Source of the DNA: a virus
Lineage: Duplodnaviria > Heunggongvirae > Uroviricota > Caudoviricetes
Virus record (IMG/VR): IMGVR_UViG_2579778929_000006
Reading direction: 5' to 3' (one strand)
Length of the DNA: 14,869 bases
How positions within the stretch are numbered: position 1 is the stretch's first letter; the number at the start of each line of letters is the position of its first letter. The position numbers and the translations under genes were made by a program. The notes under the pieces were generated by a model. The model did no database searches, was not told the origin of the DNA, and saw only the letters and a list, made by a program, of their open reading frames with translations. Shown here in pieces: positions 1 to 14,741 of this stretch.

Positions 1-1132
1 CCCCGGGGGGATGTCATTACGTGAAGTCACTGCATGGGCTCAGCTCCATGACGTTGCAACATTATCTGACGTGGCTCTCCTGAAGCGGCTGCGGAATGCC
101 ACCGACTGGTTTGGCATACTTGCCGCACAAACACTTGCTGTACGCGCCGCAGTTACGGGTTGTACAAGCGGAAAGAGATTGCGTCTTGTCGATGGAACAG
201 CAATCAGTGCGCCCGGGGGCGGCAGCGCTGAATGGCGACTACATATGGGATATGATCCTCATACCTGTCAGTTCACTGATTTTGAGCTAACCGACAGCAG
301 AGACGCTGAACGGCTGGACCGATTTGCGCAAACGGCAGACGAGATACGCATTGCTGACCGGGGATTCGGTTCGCGTCCCGAATGTATCCGCTCACTTGCT
401 TTTGGAGAAGCTGATTATATCGTCCGGGTTCACTGGCGAGGATTGCGCTGGTTAACTGCAGAAGGAATGCGCTTTGACATGATGGGTTTTCTGCGCGGGC
501 TGGATTGCGGTAAGAACGGTGAAACCACTGTAATGATAGGCAATTCAGGTAATAAAAAAGCCGGAGCTCCCTTTCCGGCACGTCTCATTGCCGTATCACT
601 TCCTCCCGAAAAAGCATTAATCAGTAAAACCCGACTGCTCAGCGAGAATCGTCGAAAAGGACGAGTAGTTCAGGCGGAAACGCTGGAAGCAGCGGGCCAT
701 GTGCTATTGCTAACATCATTACCGGAAGATGAATATTCAGCAGAGCAAGTGGCTGATTGTTACCGTCTGCGATGGCAAATTGAACTGGCTTTTAAGCGGC
801 TCAAAAGTTTGCTGCACCTGGATGCTTTGCGTGCAAAGGAACCTGAACTCGCGAAAGCGTGGATATTTGCTAATCTACTCGCCGCATTTTTAATTGACGA
901 CATAATCCAGCCATCGCTGGATTTCCCCCCCAGAAGTGCCGGATCCGAAAAGAAGAACTAACTCGTTGTGGAGAATAACAAAAATGGTCATCTGGAGCTT
1001 ACAGGTGGCCATTCGTGGGACAGTATCCCTGACAGCCTACAAAACGCAATTGAAGAACGCGAGGCATCGTCTTAACGAGGCACCGAGGCGTCGCATTCTT
1101 CAGATGGTTCAACCCTTAAGTTAGCGCTTATG
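1..1132 (+). mobile_element. IS186 (IS4 family), partial: left ~200 bp lie outside the window; right end at ~1132
   Basis: Transposase ORF runs in frame from the first bases of the window. Positions 1110-1132 (caacccttaagttagcgcttatg) are the reverse complement of the IS186 terminal inverted repeat as I recall it (CATAAGCGCTAACTTAAGGGTTG). The phage reading frame resumes immediately after 1132. Confidence 0.8.
2..961 (+). CDS. insL: IS186 transposase (IS4-family DDE transposase), N-terminally truncated by the window edge
   Basis: 316-aa ORF (11..961) continues upstream in frame (ccc ggg ggg atg = PGGM). Translation MSLREVTAWAQLHDVATLSDVALLKRLRN...YRLRWQIELAFKRLKSLLHLD matches my memory of the IS186 InsL protein. 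Confidence 0.8.
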   Translation, partial: PGGMSLREVTAWAQLHDVATLSDVALLKRLRNATDWFGILAAQTLAVRAAVTGCTSGKRLRLVDGTAISAPGGGSAEWRLHMGYDPHTCQFTDFELTDSRDAERLDRFAQTADEIRIADRGFGSRPECIRSLAFGEADYIVRVHWRGLRWLTAEGMRFDMMGFLRGLDCGKNGETTVMIGNSGNKKAGAPFPARLIAVSLPPEKALISKTRLLSENRRKGRVVQAETLEAAGHVLLLTSLPEDEYSAEQVADCYRLRWQIELAFKRLKSLLHLDALRAKEPELAKAWIFANLLAAFLIDDIIQPSLDFPPRSAGSEKKN

Positions 1133-3516: not shown

Positions 3517-3675
3517 GCCATTCAATATCTGGCGCACTGGAGGTATCAACCAGCTCCAGTGCATCCAGATAATCCAGCCACAGATTAAACTGCACTTTTC
3601 ATCATCAGACAATCGTCCAGGCGCGAGCCTGGATGCTGGCATCTCTGCCCAATTTAAATTTGAGAGGTAATTATG

Positions 3676-4227
3676 TTAACAGTTAATCCACCAGTATGTG
3701 CCGGGTGCCTGCGGGTAAGTGGCGGCGGCAACCTCGTGAACCATCCCCCAATCCAGAGCTGTGGAGGCATTGGCTATGGTGGCGGCGGAGATAACCTCCT
3801 TCCACTCATTGCGGCTCTTACTGAGCTCAATCTGACTCTCCAAAATATCGACAAAACGCTCCAGGTCATTATTGAGACACGCGCTCCACTCACTGACGCG
3901 TGAGTGATCCACGCTTGGGCCCATCAAGCCCCAGTGAAAAGGATGCAGTAAGAACCGACTCCCAGGATTCGCCTTACGTTCAGACCCTGCAAGAAAAATG
4001 ATATTAGCGACTGATTCAACATTGCTAAGGTTATGGGTCTTTACTGGGATTGGTAGGGCCTTTAGAAAGTGATAAGCAGTAAAACCTGCAACGAGGTCAC
4101 CGCCCGGACTGGAAATGTAAATGTTTAACTCAGTCGCCCCCTGATTGATAGCTCCAAGGCAATTGCTAATTAAAGCGTTAACGGTGGACTGATTTACGGG
4201 CACCGTGAAATTCATAGTATGCAGCAT
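3676..4227 (-). CDS. ClpP-fold (peptidase S14/S49-like) serine protease homologue, orphan
   Basis: Minus-strand ORF with AGGAGA 5 nt upstream of ATG at 4227-4225 (the track ORF starts one codon earlier at a GTG). NIYISSPGG aligns to the ClpP YINSPGG motif. A Ser lies 28 residues after SPGG in NVESVA, the same spacing as ClpP Ser97, and a His follows 22 residues later in RFLLHP (ClpP His122, spacing 24). The third catalytic residue was not confirmed. Confidence 0.5.
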   Translation of the reverse strand: MLHTMNFTVPVNQSTVNALISNCLGAINQGATELNIYISSPGGDLVAGFTAYHFLKALPIPVKTHNLSNVESVANIIFLAGSERKANPGSRFLLHPFHWGLMGPSVDHSRVSEWSACLNNDLERFVDILESQIELSKSRNEWKEVISAATIANASTALDWGMVHEVAAATYPQAPGTYWWINC

Positions 4228-4294
4228 CACTATCTCCTTGTTTAGTTAGTGGACACATTACCCTGGGAGCAATAAAAAACATAACGCATACTGC

Positions 4295-4740
4295 ATGCTT
4301 AGTTGGTGACCGGCGATCTAAGTTTAGCAAGGATGCATATCTGAAGGCGATACGCTGGTGGTCTGAAAGCGTGACCGCCTCGGTCGCAGCATGCGACATC
4401 TTGTTGGGTTAGTGGAGGAACTGCGGGAGAAAGGTGTTAACTTCCGGAGCCTGACGGATAGCATCGATACGAGTACGCCTATGGGGCGCTTCTTCTTTCA
4501 TGTGATGGGTGCCCTGGCTGAAATGGAGCGAGAGTTTATTGTCGAACGTACTAGGGCGGCTTTGCCGCAGCACGACAAGAAGGGAGGAACGGTGGGCGAA
4601 AGCCAAAGCTGACAGTAGAACAATGGGGGCAGGCTGGCAGGTTGATTGAATCGGGAATATATCAGCAGCAAGTCGCACTGATTTATGATCTGGATATTTC
4701 AACGGTGTATAAAAAATTCCCTGTAGCAAGTAAACCATAG
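4295..4740 (+). pseudogene. DNA invertase (serine recombinase, Pin/Gin/Hin/Cin family), disrupted
   Basis: Translation across frames gives EGDTLVV*KRDRLGRSMRHLVGLVEELREKGVNFRSLTDSIDTSTPMGRFFFHVMGALAEMEREFIVERT…, then after a frameshift RKPKLTVEQWGQAGRLIESGIYQQQVALIYDLDISTVYKKFPVASKP*. This matches invertase sequence from the middle of the catalytic domain through the C-terminal HTH. Defects: in-frame TGA at 4364-4366 where Trp is expected, a frameshift near 4590-4600, and most of the N-terminal catalytic region missing (ATGCTT at 4295 followed by an apparent deletion). Confidence 0.7.
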
Positions 4741-4766
4741 CCTTACGCCACATTGATGATCGCGGA

Positions 4767-5462
4767 TTATGCACTATTTTTAGGTCTTGTAACCCGAGGT
4801 GGGAGTTGTTTGGTTATATGTTCAAGTGATTTTTTGCCCAAGATAGTTCTTTGGACAAAACTTTCTATAGCTTCTAGCATTTGTTCGAACTCACTTTTAT
4901 TCGGGCTCCAACTGCGATGTGCGGCGGCGTTTCCTGCATCAATTACTGAAGATATAACGCATGCCTCAGTGTCGCCTATGACTCCATCTTGTTTTAATTT
5001 TTCAACTTTTTCACCAAGCGGCAAACCGGGGTGAATTTGTAACAGTTCAGCAGTTCGATCAAAAATCGTCCGTAAACCGATGGACGAAAGAATGAAATGG
5101 TCAGAAGTATATGAAGAATACATTTCATTAAATATTTGAAAGAGCTGACGATCAACTGATTCAAGCTTGGATAACCATATCGGAGCTTGAAATGTTTCAG
5201 CGGCAGGATAGGTAGTGATCATATCTATAGGCGTTTCTACAAATTCACCATCACGATATTCGTGGGTAGTATGCTCACTGAAGTGTTCGTTGTGGTGATA
5301 GAAGACAGTATCACAGCCATTGCATTGGAGTAGGTGATGGTAATGGTACCCATAAACTGGATATTGGGAATCCTCCCAGCTAGTGGTTAGCTTCCCATGC
5401 ACAGTGCAGTTACGTAACCCACCGCATGTAGGGCAAAGAGCCTTGAGTATTTCCTTTTTCAT
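4767..5462 (-). CDS. Hypothetical protein: N-terminal zinc ribbon plus C-terminal HEPN-like (DUF4145-type) domain; candidate defence/abortive-infection factor
   Basis: 231-aa ORF. Cys pairs C10-x2-C13 and C47-x2-C50 (CPTCGG…CNGCD) flank a His/Tyr-rich stretch. The C-terminal helical region carries GNAAAH, which I recall as the signature of Pfam DUF4145. GC content is visibly lower than in flanking genes. The RBS is weak. Confidence 0.5.
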   Translation of the reverse strand: MKKEILKALCPTCGGLRNCTVHGKLTTSWEDSQYPVYGYHYHHLLQCNGCDTVFYHHNEHFSEHTTHEYRDGEFVETPIDMITTYPAAETFQAPIWLSKLESVDRQLFQIFNEMYSSYTSDHFILSSIGLRTIFDRTAELLQIHPGLPLGEKVEKLKQDGVIGDTEACVISSVIDAGNAAAHRSWSPNKSEFEQMLEAIESFVQRTILGKKSLEHITKQLPPRVTRPKNSA

Positions 5463-5810
5463 AAAGTCTCTGATTCTATATGTAGGTTAAGACCACTATT
5501 AGCTATACGGACCTAATAATCAATCGTGTGCAGATACAAAAAAGCCCGTATAGCGGGATTTCATGTCACTAAGGGCCGCGGCTACTTTGCGTATCTTTTT
5601 TGTCTTCTCACCGTCTGGCCGGTATTTTGCTGAGACTGCTTATTTCCAGTTTTTACTAGTGCTGTACTGGTACTGCCCAATCATGATTGGTGGGGGACGG
5701 AGTTGAGACTGCAGCCACGTCGTATGCAAGAACGCGCTGCGGTTGGCTGGTGAACTTTCGATAGTGCGAGTATTGAATGATTTCCAGCCGTTACAGATTT
5801 TACGTGTTTA

Positions 5811-6059
5811 TTAGTGAACAAACCACTCGTCAGCAGATTCCCAGGTATCTTTCAGAGTCTCCTGAACAAAAGTTTTTGCAGAATCCTTATCTGCGGTGCG
5901 TGTAACAGAAAGGCCATCATTGCTGGTGGCTTTTACTAACACCTCAACATCGTCATAACGCTTACTGATGCGTCGGGTTAATTCTTCCTTTAACGCATCC
6001 ACAGCACCGGTTGGCATTTTAGTCATTTTTTCTTTGGCTATGCAGATTTCAATACGCAT
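5811..6059 (-). CDS. dinI: DinI-family protein (DNA-damage-inducible protein I homologue)
   Basis: 82-aa [14 protein letters not shown]…[11 protein letters not shown] closely resembles E. coli DinI (MRIEVTIAK…ETWESADDWFV). GGAGGG RBS upstream. Confidence 0.8.
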
Positions 6060-6074
6060 AAAAGTCCCTCCATA

Positions 6075-6090
6075 CTGTGTTTGTATACAG
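6075..6090 (-). promoter_or_regulatory. LexA (SOS) box upstream of the dinI-like gene
   Basis: CTGTgtttgtatACAG is a perfect CTGT-N8-ACAG. The 20-mer 6073-6092 (TACTGTGTTTGTATACAGCA) matches the consensus TACTGTATATATATACAGTA at 16 of 20 positions. It lies 16-31 bp upstream of the dinI-like start codon. Confidence 0.55.
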
Positions 6091-6120
6091 CATTATTTTT
6101 AACTGTATGGATAAACAGTG

Positions 6121-7218
6121 TCAAGAGGTCTTATTTCTGCTCCTTTGGAGCTCTTCAAAACGATTATGTAAAGATTTCGGATACAGTTCGGTATATACCT
6201 GCCATAGCACGTTTAATGAACGATGCCCTGTAACTTGGGCGACTTCCTCAATACTAAAACCAGCCTCAAATAAGCGACTTGCCCCTTCTCTACGCAAATC
6301 ATGGTATCGCAGATCCTTAATACCTAATTTGCTTCTTACTCTCTGAAATCCCGCAGTAACAGAAGTGCTGTTATATGGAAAAATGAATTCCGATTTTTGG
6401 GGCTGTCGTTGGACGATATCCCAGGCTTCCCCAAGCAAGGCTACTTTCATGTGGTTACCTTCCTTTTTGCGTGGATCTTTCCTGTCTCTTACGAGTATAG
6501 ATTTTTGTTCCTGGTCGAGATCTTCCCATCGTAACCGGCATACTTCTCCGATTCGCATACAGGACCATACAGAAAATTTGAGGATATCAACGAACGGAAT
6601 TTTTGAGCATTTATGAGTAGATCGTTGTTGAAGGCCTGCAATGAGCATGTCCAGTTCATCAGATGCTGGTCTACGATTACGACGGTTTGATTTACCAATC
6701 AAACCAAGTTTAAGTAGATATGGGCGAGCGCTTTTCGCCGGGTTTGATGTGTAATTAATTCCGTATACAGGTTTGGCCGCATCCAGAACACTGCCAAGAT
6801 AACTAACATCGTGGCTGACTGTTGCAGGACCTGCACCAGCGTTGTTTCTTAGCCTGCAATGTTCAATTACGTCATTTTCTGTCAGTTCAGATAGTTTGAT
6901 CGCGGAGATGTCACTATCCATAAGCAGTTCCAGCACATATCTTTTAGTACGGCCTGCTTTACCTCCGGCATTTGGGTCATTTAAATATTTGTGTAGTAAG
7001 TCACGGACTGTAAGTCCGTCAACTGCATTTGATGATGGAATGCCATATAGATCTAATTCCATCACTTTCTGTGTGCCCCATGTTTTGGCATGAGCATGTT
7101 TAGGGAATGTTTTGCTTTCCCTGTAAGTGATAACACCTTTTTCTTTGATAATCACATTACAGCGATAGCGTGGTGTGCCATCGGATTTTAGTCGTTTCTC
7201 TATGTTATAGTACGCCAT
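6121..7218 (-). CDS. Tyrosine site-specific integrase, candidate dusA-associated integrase
   Basis: 365-aa ORF with C-terminal …LRYHDLRREGASRLFEAGFSIEEVAQVTGHRSLNVLWQVYTELYP, consistent with the H-x-x-R … Y catalytic signature of tyrosine recombinases. GAGG RBS. Start codon is 89 bp from the divergent dusA start. Confidence 0.85.
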   Translation of the reverse strand: MAYYNIEKRLKSDGTPRYRCNVIIKEKGVITYRESKTFPKHAHAKTWGTQKVMELDLYGIPSSNAVDGLTVRDLLHKYLNDPNAGGKAGRTKRYVLELLMDSDISAIKLSELTENDVIEHCRLRNNAGAGPATVSHDVSYLGSVLDAAKPVYGINYTSNPAKSARPYLLKLGLIGKSNRRNRRPASDELDMLIAGLQQRSTHKCSKIPFVDILKFSVWSCMRIGEVCRLRWEDLDQEQKSILVRDRKDPRKKEGNHMKVALLGEAWDIVQRQPQKSEFIFPYNSTSVTAGFQRVRSKLGIKDLRYHDLRREGASRLFEAGFSIEEVAQVTGHRSLNVLWQVYTELYPKSLHNRFEELQRSRNKTS

Positions 7219-7306
7219 TACACGACCTCGTTATTTCGGGTTCCCATAAAACGTGGGAACCTGTGCGGGAACCTAACGCGAGAAAAATAGCCTGAAATGT
7301 TCAAAA

Positions 7307-8344
7307 ATGCACGATAATCATGAAACACAAAAAATTAATCAAACCAGCGTGATGCCTGAAAAAACTGGTGTTTACTGGAATTCTCGGTTTAGCATTGCTC
7401 CTATGCTCGACTGGACGGACAGACATTGCCGCTATTTCTTGCGTCTGCTTTCCCGCAATACGTTGCTGTATACCGAAATGGTGACCACAGGGGCGATTAT
7501 TCACGGTAAAGGTGATTACCTGGCGTACAGTGAAGAAGAACATCCGGTAGCGTTGCAACTCGGCGGTAGCGATCCGGCGGCGCTGGCACAGTGTGCGAAG
7601 CTGGCAGAAGCGCGTGGATATGATGAGATCAACCTGAATGTCGGCTGCCCGTCTGACCGGGTGCAGAACGGCATGTTTGGTGCGTGTCTGATGGGTAATG
7701 CGCAGCTGGTTGCCGACTGCGTGAAAGCGATGCGCGATGTGGTGTCGATTCCGGTGACGGTGAAAACGCGTATTGGCATCGACGACCAGGACAGCTATGA
7801 ATTTCTCTGCGATTTCATCAACACCGTTTCCGGCAAAGGCGAGTGTGAGATGTTCATCATCCATGCACGTAAAGCCTGGCTTTCGGGGTTAAGTCCGAAA
7901 GAAAACCGTGAGATCCCGCCGCTCGATTATCCGCGTGTGTATCAACTGAAGCGTGACTTTCCGCATCTGACAATGTCGATTAACGGTGGTATCAAGTCGC
8001 TGGAAGAGGCCAAAGCACACCTGCAACATATGGATGGCGTGATGGTCGGGCGCGAGGCGTATCAGAATCCGGGTATTCTGGCGGCGGTAGACCGGGAGAT
8101 CTTTGGTTCCTCGGATATCGATGCCGATCCGGTGGCGGTAGTGCGCGCCATGTATCCGTACATTGAGCGTGAACTCAGCCAGGGGACGTATCTCGGTCAT
8201 ATTACCCGGCATATGTTGGGCTTGTTCCAGGGTATTCCTGGCGCGCGGCAGTGGCGGCGTTATTTAAGTGAAAATGCCCATAAAGCGGGTGCAGACATTA
8301 ATGTGCTGGAACACGCGCTCAAACTGGTGGCGGATAAGCGTTAA
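7307..8344 (+). CDS. dusA: tRNA-dihydrouridine synthase A
   Basis: 345-aa ORF. …[37 protein letters not shown]…[14 protein letters not shown]… matches E. coli DusA. The true start is uncertain (in-frame ATGs at 7307, 7322 and 7352), and the first codons may be island-derived. Confidence 0.9.
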
Positions 8345-8477: not shown

Positions 8478-8720
8478 ATGCTGGAACTACTTTTTGTGAT
8501 TGGCTTTTTTGTCATGCTGATGGTCACCGGCGTTTCGTTGCTGGGCATTATCGCCGCGCTGGTTGTGGCGACGGCCATTATGTTCCTCGGCGGTATGCTG
8601 GCATTGATGATTAAGTTGCTGCCGTGGTTACTACTGGCGATTGCGGTGGTGTGGGTTATTAAGGCGATTAAAGCACCAAAAGTGCCGAAATATCAGCGTT
8701 ATGACCGCTGGCGTTACTAA
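8478..8720 (+). CDS. pspG: Phage shock protein G (small inner-membrane protein)
   Basis: 80-aa hydrophobic protein MLELLFVIGFFVMLMVTGVSLLGIIAALVV…, preceded by GGGAG RBS. The track ORF starting at 8268 is an upstream in-frame extension. Confidence 0.85.
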   Translation: MLELLFVIGFFVMLMVTGVSLLGIIAALVVATAIMFLGGMLALMIKLLPWLLLAIAVVWVIKAIKAPKVPKYQRYDRWRY

Positions 8721-8844
8721 GGGATTGTGCGGATGATCACAACCTAAGGTTTTATCCTTAGAACAAAATAGGAATTGATAATCAAATCTGTCACTATTGC
8801 GCCTCTAACAGATTCATCGTGCTGTACCCTACATACAGCCGAAC

Positions 8845-13978: not shown

Positions 13979-14465
13979 AGTGAAATTAAACTGTCGTCGC
14001 TTTCACTATTTCTTTGTAGATGATTTTTTTGATGCCGTTGTTCTACGTGAGAGATAATAAAACGTTGTCAGTTCTTTTATTGTTAAGTTTATCCCAATTA
14101 TCTGGAATTCCTTTCCCTATTTTTTCGTGTGGAGTAATAATTTCTGCACATCTAACCATTATTAAATTTAATAATAAGTATCGGGTTTGTTACGATAGAA
14201 TATTTCTATATCCTCAAGAATATGCTTTGCCTTATTACCTGTGACTTTCTGAGATTCAATTATAGTATCGTTAAATTCTAATGTTAAAGAGAGCTATTTT
14301 TTCCGCTTTGTGTAAGTTTAACCTTATATTGATTACCAATATCAAATAAAAAGGTCCTGTAATGAGAATAATCACCTTTAACCTCCTCGGCAAAACAGCA
14401 AAGCGTGCAAGGTGATGCTGCCAACTTACTGATTTAGTGTATGATGGTGTTTTTGAGGTGCTCCA

Positions 14466-14741
14466 GTGGCTTCTGTTTCTATCAGCTGTCCCTCCTGTTC
14501 AGCTACTGACGGGGTGGTGCGTAACGGCAAAAGCACCGCCGGACATCAGCGCTATCTCTGCTCTCACTGCCGTAAAACATGGCAACTGCAGTTCACTTAC
14601 ACCGCTTCTCAACCCGGTACGCACCAGAAAATCATTGATATGGCCATGAATGGCGTTGGATGCCGGGCAACTGCCCGCATTATGGGCGTTGGCCTCAACA
14701 CGATTTTACGTCACTTAAAAAACTCAGGCCGCAGTCGGTAA
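14466..14741 (+). CDS. insA: IS1 InsA (transposition inhibitor / N-terminal part of InsAB')
   Basis: 91-aa [46 protein letters not shown]…LKNSGRSR is identical to IS1 InsA as I recall it. Confidence 0.9.

What the first reader, a model, noticed from the sequence alone, without database searches (positions are those of the whole stretch)
4767..5462. Orphan zinc-ribbon plus HEPN-like (DUF4145-type) gene in a low-GC cargo slot: candidate single-gene antiphage or abortive-infection factor
The 231-aa product has an N-terminal four-Cys zinc ribbon (C10-x2-C13 … C47-x2-C50) and a His/Tyr-rich linker. Its C-terminal helical domain carries GNAAAH, which I recall as the hallmark of DUF4145, a HEPN-related domain common in defence islands. 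The gene has lower GC than its neighbours and sits among mobile-element cargo (decayed invertase, dinI-like gene, integrase). It is on the same strand as, and downstream of, a dinI-like gene with a LexA box, so its expression may be tied to the SOS response. I know of no characterised system with this exact architecture.
Basis: partly seen in the sequence, partly recalled or inferred. Interest (0 to 1): 0.7.

Follow-up and report, generated by a model that had tools for sequence, protein, structure and literature searches.

The report
RAZR-like zinc-ribbon HEPN prophage gene
A real prophage cargo gene whose domain layout matches RAZR, a recently characterised single-protein antiphage RNase, but which belongs to a separate and much larger untested family that lacks RAZR's catalytic arginine.

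Summary

The claim that no characterised system has this architecture is out of date. PD-T7-4, renamed RAZR (Vassallo 2022; Zhang 2026), is a zinc ribbon plus DUF4145/HEPN single-gene abortive-infection RNase, often found next to integrases.

The window protein is not a member of that family:
- It gets no hit to the PD-T7-4 model, and neither do 111 diverse relatives.
- Its N-domain is about 28 aa longer, with an extra beta hairpin.
- The position of RAZR's catalytic R146 is always hydrophobic, while H182 and R131 are invariant and R183 nearly so.

The family is large (289 clusters at E<=1e-30). Its members are solitary genes at the att-proximal cargo ends of prophages, on plasmids and in defence islands.

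SOS coupling is not supported. The LexA boxes belong to dinI, and a relic copy of the ssrA 3' end, trailer and terminator separates the two genes.

Verdict: a probable antiphage or anti-MGE effector, a new variant of a known kind, and of moderate interest.

The parts
4767..5462 (-). Complete gene for the 231-aa zinc-ribbon plus DUF4145/HEPN protein (WP_001514810.1)
   Evidence: ORF. Pfam DUF4145 above cut-off. PHROG 1305 matches full length at E=5e-43. Identical annotated gene in 34 E. coli genomes. Full-length relatives form 289 clusters at E<=1e-30.
5205..5462 (-). Codons 1-86: N-terminal Cys4 zinc-ribbon domain built as a long four- to five-stranded antiparallel sheet (C10, C13, C47, C50)
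5175..5204 (-). Codons 87-96: interdomain linker (PAAETFQAPIW) with conserved P94 and W96
   Evidence: No secondary structure in the models. P86, P94 and W96 are nearly invariant.
4833..5174 (-). Codons 97-210: helical DUF4145/HEPN domain with invariant R131 and H182 and nearly invariant R183 (codons 182-183 at 4914-4919)
4770..4832 (-). Codons 211-231: predicted disordered C-terminal tail carrying the conserved motif [T/I/V/L]-P-[P/A]-[R/K]-x-x-[R/K] (L220-P221-P222-R223..R226)
   Evidence: pLDDT <50 for residues 211-221. P221 is invariant in 111/111 sequences and position 223 is R/K in 109/111.
5537..5716 (-). Relic copy of the ssrA (tmRNA) 3' end, its 3' trailer and its terminator hairpin (hairpin 5545-5557, T-run to 5537). 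It marks a module boundary between dinI-like and the DUF4145 gene
   Evidence: About 80% identity to the stretch just downstream of ssrA, with copies in 5420/5426 E. coli genomes. Alignment A5. Sequence read. The fold is weak (z = -1.0).
5811..6059 (-). dinI-like gene (neighbour, not part of the unit)
   Evidence: Pfam DinI E=1.1e-19, NCBIfam PRK10597 and PHROG 189.
6075..6124 (-). dinI promoter-like site (TTGACA-18-AAAAAT) overlapped by two perfect LexA boxes (6075-6090, 6103-6118)
6121..7218 (-). Tyrosine integrase of the prophage, directly abutting dusA (7307-8344, +)
   Evidence: Pfam Phage_integrase E=8e-21. RefSeq annotation.
4391..4612 (+). Fragment of the decayed Pin/Gin-type serine invertase, convergent with the DUF4145 gene
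   Evidence: Pfam Resolvase E=3e-19. Annotated as a frameshifted pseudogene in CT29 and intact in pSX12-2.

Best explanation
The gene is a solitary accessory ('moron') gene of a dusA-integrated prophage with a Mu-like tail. It encodes a two-domain protein built like RAZR/PD-T7-4: an N-terminal Cys4 zinc-ribbon domain, a short linker and a C-terminal DUF4145/HEPN domain.

The most likely function is single-protein defence of the lysogen against other phages, or other invading elements, by abortive infection. In this model the variable zinc-ribbon sheet acts as the sensor that binds an invader-made protein. Binding changes how HEPN domains of neighbouring subunits pair. The HEPN site built around H182, R183 and R131 then cleaves RNA and stops translation.

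Shown here: the domains, the fold, the conservation pattern, the solitary state and the mobile or defence genomic settings. Inferred by analogy with RAZR: sensing through the zinc ribbon, oligomer-dependent activation, RNA cleavage and abortive infection.

The protein belongs to a separate and much larger clade than RAZR. That clade has a variant active-site motif and an extra beta hairpin, so its trigger and possibly its chemistry may differ.
For: Domains and fold:
- Pfam DUF4145 above cut-off.
- A confident zinc-ribbon model whose core resembles TFS/Rpb9-type ribbons, the same type reported for RAZR's ZFD.

Same order and similar size as PD-T7-4:
- PD-T7-4 has its Zn ribbon at residues 9-59 and DUF4145 at 87-175.
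- The window protein has Cys pairs at 10-50 and DUF4145 at 115-199.
- RAZR is an experimentally proven Abi RNase whose ZFD sets specificity.
- The HEPN parts of two family members weakly match the PD-T7-4 HMM (E=3.7e-4 and 0.009).

Selection: strong purifying conservation of C10, C13, C47, C50, R131, H182, R183, W185 and P221 across 111 representatives at 25-46% identity.

Context, always without a conserved partner gene:
- Last cargo gene next to att or int in P2-like, lambda-like, P22-like and Mu-like prophages.
- On plasmids among IS elements, integrases, a restriction endonuclease and DUF262.
- Beside Gabija plus reverse transcriptase, Mrr and a TIR protein.
- The equivalent dinI-proximal slot in other E. 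coli prophages holds reverse transcriptase+SLATT and HTH+ImmA cargo.
- PD-T7-4 homologues are likewise integrase-adjacent.

Other DUF4145 proteins have proven defence roles: BxaP and Ishtar.
Against: - No phenotype is known for this family.
- No PADLOC model matches the window protein, and 0 of 111 relatives match PD-T7-4.
- The Arg equivalent to RAZR's essential R146 is I174 here and is never Arg in the family. RNase activity is therefore not assured.
- PHROGs labels the family 'DNA binding protein'.
- No homologue was found in 50,697 deposited phage genomes.
Confidence: 0.55

Rival explanations
1. The HEPN domain is non-catalytic. The protein acts by binding rather than cleaving, for example as a nucleic-acid or protein-binding exclusion factor or regulator of the prophage, as HEPN-fold MtlR-type regulators do.
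Against: H182 and R131 are invariant, and R183, A176-G177, A179 and E200 are nearly so, across 111 distant relatives. That pattern looks like an active site rather than a mere scaffold. The closest characterised architecture is an active RNase. The PHROG label carries no experimental basis.
Confidence: 0.2
2. One reading: an SOS-coupled toxin co-transcribed with the dinI-like gene from the LexA-controlled promoter, acting at prophage induction rather than as standing immunity.
For: The gene is on the same strand as the dinI-like gene, 348 bp downstream of it. That gene carries two perfect LexA boxes. No consensus sigma-70 promoter was found directly upstream of the gene. The intervening hairpin is short and folds weakly (z = -1.0). 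One Ralstonia homologue has a LexA box at -176.
Against: The intervening block is homologous to the ssrA trailer plus terminator, and its hairpin is preserved by different bases. There is no LexA box in the 450 nt upstream of the gene, either in the window or in 10 of 11 homologue loci. In relatives, dinI lies on the other side, is divergent or is absent.
Confidence: 0.07
3. The gene targets other mobile elements rather than lytic phages. It could act against plasmids, like the DUF4145 protein Ishtar1, or in competition between prophages, or it could benefit the carrying phage as a counter-defence factor.
For: DUF4145 proteins with anti-plasmid activity exist. The family is common on conjugative plasmids, and 51 of the 69 plasmid records with a match are from Yersinia. 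It sits at the ends of many different prophage types.
Against: Ishtar has the opposite domain order and no zinc ribbon. The best architectural match, RAZR, is antiphage. No homologue was found in deposited virulent or temperate phage genomes, which argues against a core phage-benefit gene.
Confidence: 0.13

Closest known systems
RAZR (PD-T7-4; E. coli UMB1727 RRL46918.1; PDB 9Y9C and 9Y6U). Vassallo et al. 2022 (PMC9519451); Zhang et al. 2026 (PMC13017515)
   Same: - Single-gene unit of about 220-230 aa.
- N-terminal Cys4 zinc ribbon of TFIIS/Rpb9 type with the two CxxC knuckles about 37-40 aa apart.
- Short conserved linker, then a C-terminal DUF4145/HEPN domain with a His at the equivalent Pfam position (H154 in RAZR, H182 here).
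- Located next to integrases on mobile elements.
- The zinc-ribbon domain is the more variable part.
   Different: - No match to the PD-T7-4 HMM (window protein and 0/111 relatives).
- About 28 extra residues form a long beta hairpin (53-85) between ribbon and linker.
- The position of RAZR's essential R146 is Ile/Val/Thr/Leu. Instead R183, directly after the His, is nearly invariant, and R131 is invariant.
- A conserved C-terminal P-P-R tail, with no known counterpart in RAZR.
- Trigger, oligomeric state and activity are untested.
DUF4145-like HEPN family (Anantharaman et al. 2013, PMC3710099; Pfam PF13643, clan CL0291)
   Same: Scores above the Pfam gathering threshold. The paper already lists zinc-ribbon fusions among DUF4145 architectures.
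   Different: The paper reports the Rx4-6H motif as conserved in about 80% of DUF4145 members. This clade falls in the minority that lacks the Arg.
DS-38 (WP_001313577.1; DefensePredictor, PMC13092281)
   Same: An E. coli single-protein antiphage system combining HEPN and zinc-finger modules.
   Different: It is 366 aa with the opposite order: an N-terminal HEPN with a canonical RNxxxH motif and multiple C-terminal zinc fingers. It is unrelated in sequence.
BxaP and Ishtar1 (DUF4145-containing defence proteins; PMC10799925 and bioRxiv 10.64898/2026.07.06.735840)
   Same: A DUF4145/HEPN effector module in proven anti-phage (BxaP) or anti-plasmid (Ishtar1) proteins.
   Different: DUF4145 is N-terminal and fused to a HEAT-like or beta-rich C-terminal domain. 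Neither has a zinc ribbon.

Membership tests
Pfam DUF4145 (PF13643) | Score at or above the curated gathering threshold of the family HMM | tested here: met
   39 bits against a 23.1-bit cut-off, E=8.8e-10, residues 115-199 matching profile positions 4-87 of 88. 26/26 relatives also match.
HEPN superfamily | Four-helix up-down bundle fold shared with solved HEPN domains | tested here: met
HEPN superfamily (catalytic RNase members) | Rx4-6H-type Arg/His dyad (R146...H154 in RAZR) | tested here: not met
   H182 is invariant, but positions 174-178 hold R/K in only 3 of 111 relatives, and position 174 is T/V/I/A/L. The motif here is A-G-[S/N]-A-A-A-H-R.
RAZR / PD-T7-4 | Match to the PD-T7-4 family HMM (PADLOC PDLC04109) | tested here: not met
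   No hit for the window protein even at E<=10. 0/111 and 1/26 relatives match. The only hits are weak and cover the HEPN part alone, in the Y. pestis (E=0.009) and C. pauculus (E=3.7e-4) homologues.
RAZR / PD-T7-4 | Architecture: N-terminal Cys4 zinc ribbon, linker, C-terminal DUF4145 | tested here: met
   compared with the published HHpred table (Zn ribbon 9-59, DUF4145 87-175) and the description of RAZR.
RAZR / PD-T7-4 | Direct sequence or structure similarity to RAZR itself (RRL46918.1; 9Y9C) | tested here: inconclusive
RAZR / PD-T7-4 | Abortive-infection phage defence, activation by ring-shaped phage proteins, non-specific ssRNA cleavage | not testable with these tools
   Requires plaque assays, escaper mapping, biochemistry and cryo-EM.
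HEPN-MNT type toxin-antitoxin | Adjacent, co-oriented nucleotidyltransferase (MNT) antitoxin gene | tested here: not met
   No conserved neighbour in the 16 related contexts examined. Pfam found no NTase next to the gene.
LexA/SOS regulon | LexA box (CTGT-N8-ACAG) in the gene's own upstream region | tested here: not met
   No box with <=1 mismatch in the 450 nt upstream of the gene. The two perfect boxes lie at the dinI promoter, 6075-6118.

The most novel reading that the evidence does not exclude
This gene represents a second, far larger clade of zinc-ribbon-HEPN immune sensors. In place of the canonical Arg/His dyad it uses a non-canonical catalytic centre: the invariant His followed directly by a nearly invariant Arg, plus an invariant Arg from another helix. 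It also carries an enlarged beta-sheet sensor and an invariant disordered P-P-R tail. On this reading it senses a different class of invader signal than RAZR's 170-A protein rings, or is activated in a different way, for example by tail-mediated docking or autoinhibition.
Probability: 0.3. Interest if true: 0.6.

Novelty: new variant of a known kind. Interest (0 to 1): 0.45.

Why it matters
RAZR showed that a roughly 220-aa protein can detect phage infection by assembling around ring-shaped phage proteins.

The window gene shows that the same zinc-ribbon plus DUF4145 layout exists in a distinct family. That family has 289 clusters at E<=1e-30 and spans Enterobacterales, Burkholderiales and Alphaproteobacteria (Rhizobium, Roseinatronobacter), and it includes a gene on Yersinia pestis pMT1. 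The PADLOC models tested here do not recognise it.

If the family is defensive, it would add a common unrecognised system to prophage and plasmid cargo. It would also test two questions: whether the HEPN Arg is dispensable, and whether the zinc-ribbon sensor principle extends to other triggers.

If the family is not catalytic, it would be a clear case of a HEPN scaffold repurposed in mobile elements.

Tried and rejected
- **RAZR sequence.** I could not obtain it for a direct comparison. Five PDB sequence searches (window protein, pMT1 and Cupriavidus homologues, profiles A1 and A4) returned only noise. The paper's supplements are not held as text, and the methods give no sequences.
- **AFDB search.** Foldseek against afdb50 was unavailable.
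- **HEPN-only homologue search.** It found only three close fragments and cost one of three searches.
- **Deposited phage genomes.** tblastn with the window protein and a Burkholderia homologue found nothing, despite the PHROG match.
- **RNA searches.** Rfam (gathering and E-value modes) and ARAGORN found no RNA gene in the window or in the dinI-DUF4145 spacer.
- **DS-38.** I considered whether the protein is DS-38 from DefensePredictor. It is not: different accession, 366 aa, reversed domain order.
- **ClpP-like neighbour.** I considered a two-gene system with the ClpP-like gene at 3676-4230. I rejected it because that gene is absent from the other E. coli copies and from all relatives.
- **Toxin-antitoxin reading.** Rejected for lack of any conserved partner gene.

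Full report
**1. Observation**

Window 4767-5462 (-) is an ATG-initiated ORF of 231 codons. The product has CxxC pairs at C10/C13 and C47/C50, plus C19 and C168, and GNAAAH at residues 177-182. Pfam DUF4145 (PF13643) matches residues 115-199 at E=8.8e-10 and 39 bits, above the 23.1-bit curated cut-off. PHROG 1305 matches over the full length at E=5e-43. NCBIfam and PADLOC give nothing.

The DNA of window 3600-7300, which contains this gene, is 100% identical to E. coli CT29. There the gene is annotated as WP_001514810.1, 'DUF4145 domain-containing protein'.

Gene GC is 0.415 (GC3 0.35). The adjacent integrase (0.426), dinI-like gene (0.43) and spacer (0.45) are just as AT-rich, whereas the tail, ClpP-like and invertase genes are 0.49-0.57. 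The low GC therefore marks the whole int-proximal end of the element.

**2. Setting**

The window covers the right end of a prophage with a Mu-like tail that is integrated at the 5' end of dusA. The order is: baseplate and tail-fibre genes, a ClpP-like ORF (3676-4230, -), a decayed Pin/Gin-type invertase, the DUF4145 gene, the dinI-like gene, the tyrosine integrase, then dusA-pspG-qorA-dnaB-alr-tyrB.

The gene is rare and almost invariant in E. coli. It occurs in 34 of 5,426 complete genomes, with every copy at least 99% identical. 29 genomes carry at least 80% of the 3600-7300 query, and every copy I inspected had the same invertase-DUF4145-dinI-int-dusA order. In intact copies the invertase is whole and the ClpP-like gene is absent.

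**3. Structure**

An AF2 model built on 13 homologues has mean pLDDT 83.

- Residues 1-86 form a sheet of long antiparallel strands. The two CxxC knuckles lie in the non-strand segments between those strands.
- Residues 97-208 are helical.
- Residues 211-221 are disordered.

The real linker is residues 87-96.

**4. The architecture is already characterised**

[quoted passage not shown] 2022, PMC9519451). It has since been renamed RAZR, for ring-activated zinc-finger RNase (Zhang et al., Nature 2026, PMC13017515).

RAZR has an N-terminal Cys4 zinc ribbon that superposes on the Rpb9/TFS ribbon 1QYP, a conserved linker (66-79) and a C-terminal DUF4145 domain that the authors treat as a divergent HEPN RNase. 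R146 and H154 are essential. It acts by abortive infection. It assembles as a 24-mer around ring-shaped phage proteins (the T7-type portal, or Gp77 of SECphi27) and then cleaves ssRNA non-specifically. Swapping the zinc-ribbon domain swaps specificity. [quoted passage not shown]

Anantharaman et al. 2013 had already listed zinc-ribbon fusions among DUF4145 architectures.

**5. The window protein is not a RAZR family member**

- *No HMM match.* PADLOC's PD-T7-4 model (PDLC04109, 211 positions) gives no hit to the window protein even at E<=10. It hits 1 of 26 relatives and 0 of 111 diverse relatives. Only the HEPN parts of the Y. pestis pMT1 homologue (E=0.009) and a Cupriavidus homologue (E=3.7e-4) score weakly.
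- *Coordinate mapping.* The published HHpred table puts PD-T7-4's zinc ribbon at residues 9-59 and DUF4145 at 87-175, aligned to Pfam positions 1-90. In the window protein DUF4145 is at 115-199, aligned to Pfam 4-87. This maps RAZR H154 onto H182 and R146 onto I174, with a 28-residue offset. The offset corresponds to the extra beta hairpin (residues 53-85). This mapping is an inference from coordinates, not a direct alignment.
- *No catalytic Arg.* Across 111 representatives at 25-46% identity, position 174 is T/V/I/A/L and never Arg. Only 3 sequences have R/K anywhere in 174-178.
- *What is conserved.* C10, C47, R131, H182, W185 and P221 are invariant. C13, C50, R183 (107/111), A176, G177, A179, P187 and E200 are nearly invariant.

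The family motif is A-G-[S/N]-A-A-A-H-R, not Rx4-6H. A disordered C-terminal tail carries a conserved [T/I/V/L]-P-[P/A]-[R/K]-x-x-[R/K] motif. I could not obtain the RAZR sequence, and no RAZR chain surfaced in any PDB sequence or fold search. Direct similarity is therefore untested.

**6. Family size and contexts**

A profile search of 1.84 billion cluster representatives found 2,696 proteins at E<=1e-3, 1,393 at E<=1e-10 and 289 at E<=1e-30. Most of the best 150 are about 210-270 aa and match over nearly the full profile; a minority are fragments or carry N-terminal extensions.

Contexts are consistently mobile, and the gene is consistently solitary.

- *Prophage ends in Enterobacter, Citrobacter and Atlantibacter.* The 67-70% identical homologues are the last gene at the end of P2-like, lambda-like and P22-like prophages, next to gtr/glycosyltransferase, DinI and UmuDC-like morons. 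Their stop codon abuts a partial tRNA 3' end, about 45 nt ending in ...GGTTCAAATCC...CCGACCA. No complete tRNA is present, so this is an attachment-site copy; from memory it resembles tRNA-Pro(GGG). In one locus the integrase lies directly upstream.
- *Other prophages.* In Ralstonia the gene ends a Mu-like element. In Burkholderia gladioli it lies between the lysis genes and the serine integrase, beside a TIR protein.
- *Defence islands.* In Burkholderia lata it is in an island with Gabija-like genes, a PRTase and a reverse transcriptase. In Rahnella two paralogues flank an Mrr nuclease.
- *Plasmids.* Homologues sit on plasmids among IS elements, integrases, a restriction endonuclease and DUF262. 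One lies on Y. pestis pMT1 between caf1R and ymt.
- *The equivalent slot elsewhere.* The same dinI-proximal slot in other E. coli prophages holds reverse transcriptase+SLATT or HTH+ImmA/IrrE cargo.
- *An exception.* Rhizobial long forms (about 400 aa) add an N-terminal extension and are followed by an overlapping gene of about 1,200-1,300 aa.

**7. SOS coupling**

The two perfect LexA boxes (6075-6090, 6103-6118) overlap a TTGACA-18-AAAAAT promoter for the dinI-like gene. The 348-bp spacer contains no LexA box.

On the minus strand, about 5716-5537 is a diverged copy of the last ~25 nt of ssrA, the ssrA 3' trailer and the ssrA terminator hairpin. The native sequence is GCCCACAGATGTGGGC-TTTTT and the window has CCCGCTATACGGGC-TTTTTT. 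The same block follows dinI-like genes in other prophages. I read it as a relic attachment-site copy of an ssrA-integrating element. It forms a module boundary and places a terminator between the SOS promoter and the DUF4145 gene.

The hairpin alone is thermodynamically weak (z = -1.0), so some read-through cannot be excluded. No consensus promoter was detected directly upstream of the gene either. Even so, relatives are not arranged downstream of dinI, and 10 of 11 homologue loci have no upstream LexA box. SOS coupling is at most a local accident.

**8. Most likely mechanism**

By analogy with RAZR, and from the conservation pattern, the zinc-ribbon sheet is probably the sensor for an invader-made protein. 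The HEPN domains of neighbouring subunits then pair or rearrange, and the site built around H182, R183 and R131 cleaves RNA. Infection of the lysogen is aborted.

- Shown here: domains, fold, conservation, solitary state and mobile or defence context.
- Inferred: sensing, oligomerisation, RNase activity and abortive infection.
- Main caveat: the canonical Arg is missing, which leaves room for a non-catalytic, binding-only role.

I put about 0.55 on the defence-effector reading, 0.20 on a non-catalytic binder or regulator, 0.13 on another anti-MGE or phage-benefit role, and 0.07 on the SOS-coupled version.

**9. Novelty and score**

The kind of system, a zinc-ribbon-DUF4145 single-protein immune RNase, is known. 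This gene belongs to a distinct, much larger and uncharacterised clade, marked by a variant active-site motif, an enlarged sensor domain and a conserved tail. I rate it a new variant of a known kind.

Interest is moderate (0.45). It is a good experimental target that could broaden the RAZR principle or reveal a HEPN variant that does not need the Arg. It is not a categorically new architecture.

Noticed in passing
window 5537-5716 (minus strand): Diverged copy of the ssrA/tmRNA 3' end, its 3' trailer and its terminator, lying between dinI-like and the DUF4145 gene. Related ~160-bp copies occur in 5420/5426 E. coli genomes (median 4 per genome), including downstream of dinI-like genes in other prophages. 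It is probably a relic att copy of an ssrA-integrating element. Rfam and ARAGORN do not recognise it.
   Followed up: partly
window 3676-4230 (-): Orphan ClpP-like ORF (Pfam CLP_protease E=5e-13; closest to phage head-maturation proteases, PHROG 94). It sits where intact relatives of this prophage carry the alternative tail-fibre and tail-fibre-assembly genes of the invertible segment. It is present in CT29 but not in the other copies inspected. It has no PADLOC hit.
   Followed up: partly
window 4340-4740 (+): The Pin/Gin-type invertase next to the tail-fibre genes is decayed here (frameshift, internal stop). It is intact in pSX12-2, while the 720632 copy is also frameshifted. Tail-fibre switching is presumably frozen in this copy.
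   Followed up: partly
window 11-961 and 1167-1601: A transposase ORF that looks IS4-type (by eye, not tested against any library) precedes a truncated baseplate-J gene. In CT29 the baseplate gene is complete, so the window comes from a related strain in which an IS has cut the prophage.
   Followed up: no
L010:7001-7723 (Yersinia pestis pMT1, WP_002224263.1): A 41%-identical full-length homologue sits on the plague plasmid pMT1 between caf1R (F1 capsule regulator) and ymt (murine toxin), flanked by IS100, IS256-type and IS1618 elements. It is present in essentially all pMT1 records found.
   Followed up: partly
L003, L004, L005, L018, L021: first ~55 nt after the homologue's stop codon (about 8697-8755): The stop codon of the Enterobacter, Citrobacter and Atlantibacter homologues abuts a partial tRNA 3' end (about 45 nt, ...GGTTCAAATCC...CCGACCA; from memory it resembles tRNA-Pro(GGG), which was not tested) followed by a strong terminator. 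Different prophage types are integrated beyond it. The gene therefore sits exactly at an att boundary and persists while the neighbouring prophage changes.
   Followed up: partly
L011:5686-10643 and L029:8001-12862: Rhizobial members are long forms (335-412 aa) with an extra N-terminal region, including a second CxxC...CxxC element in some. They are followed by an overlapping gene for a 1,200-1,300-aa protein with no Pfam hit on record (L029; annotated 'hypothetical protein' in L011), which may make this a two-gene variant of the system.
   Followed up: no
window 4770-4832 (codons 211-231): Invariant proline (P221) within a [T/I/V/L]-P-[P/A]-[R/K]-x-x-[R/K] motif in a predicted disordered C-terminal tail, conserved across 111 distant relatives. 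Its partner is unknown.
   Followed up: partly
window 14466-14741 (+): An ORF at the right edge of the window resembles IS1 InsA (recognised by eye, not tested). It follows a very AT-rich stretch (GC 0.30 at 14001-14400) downstream of tyrB.
   Followed up: no
L024:7825-7840: A perfect LexA box (CTGTATGAACATACAG) lies 176 nt upstream of the Ralstonia homologue, at the start of a divergent 111-aa gene. It is the only one of 11 homologue loci with such a box.
   Followed up: no
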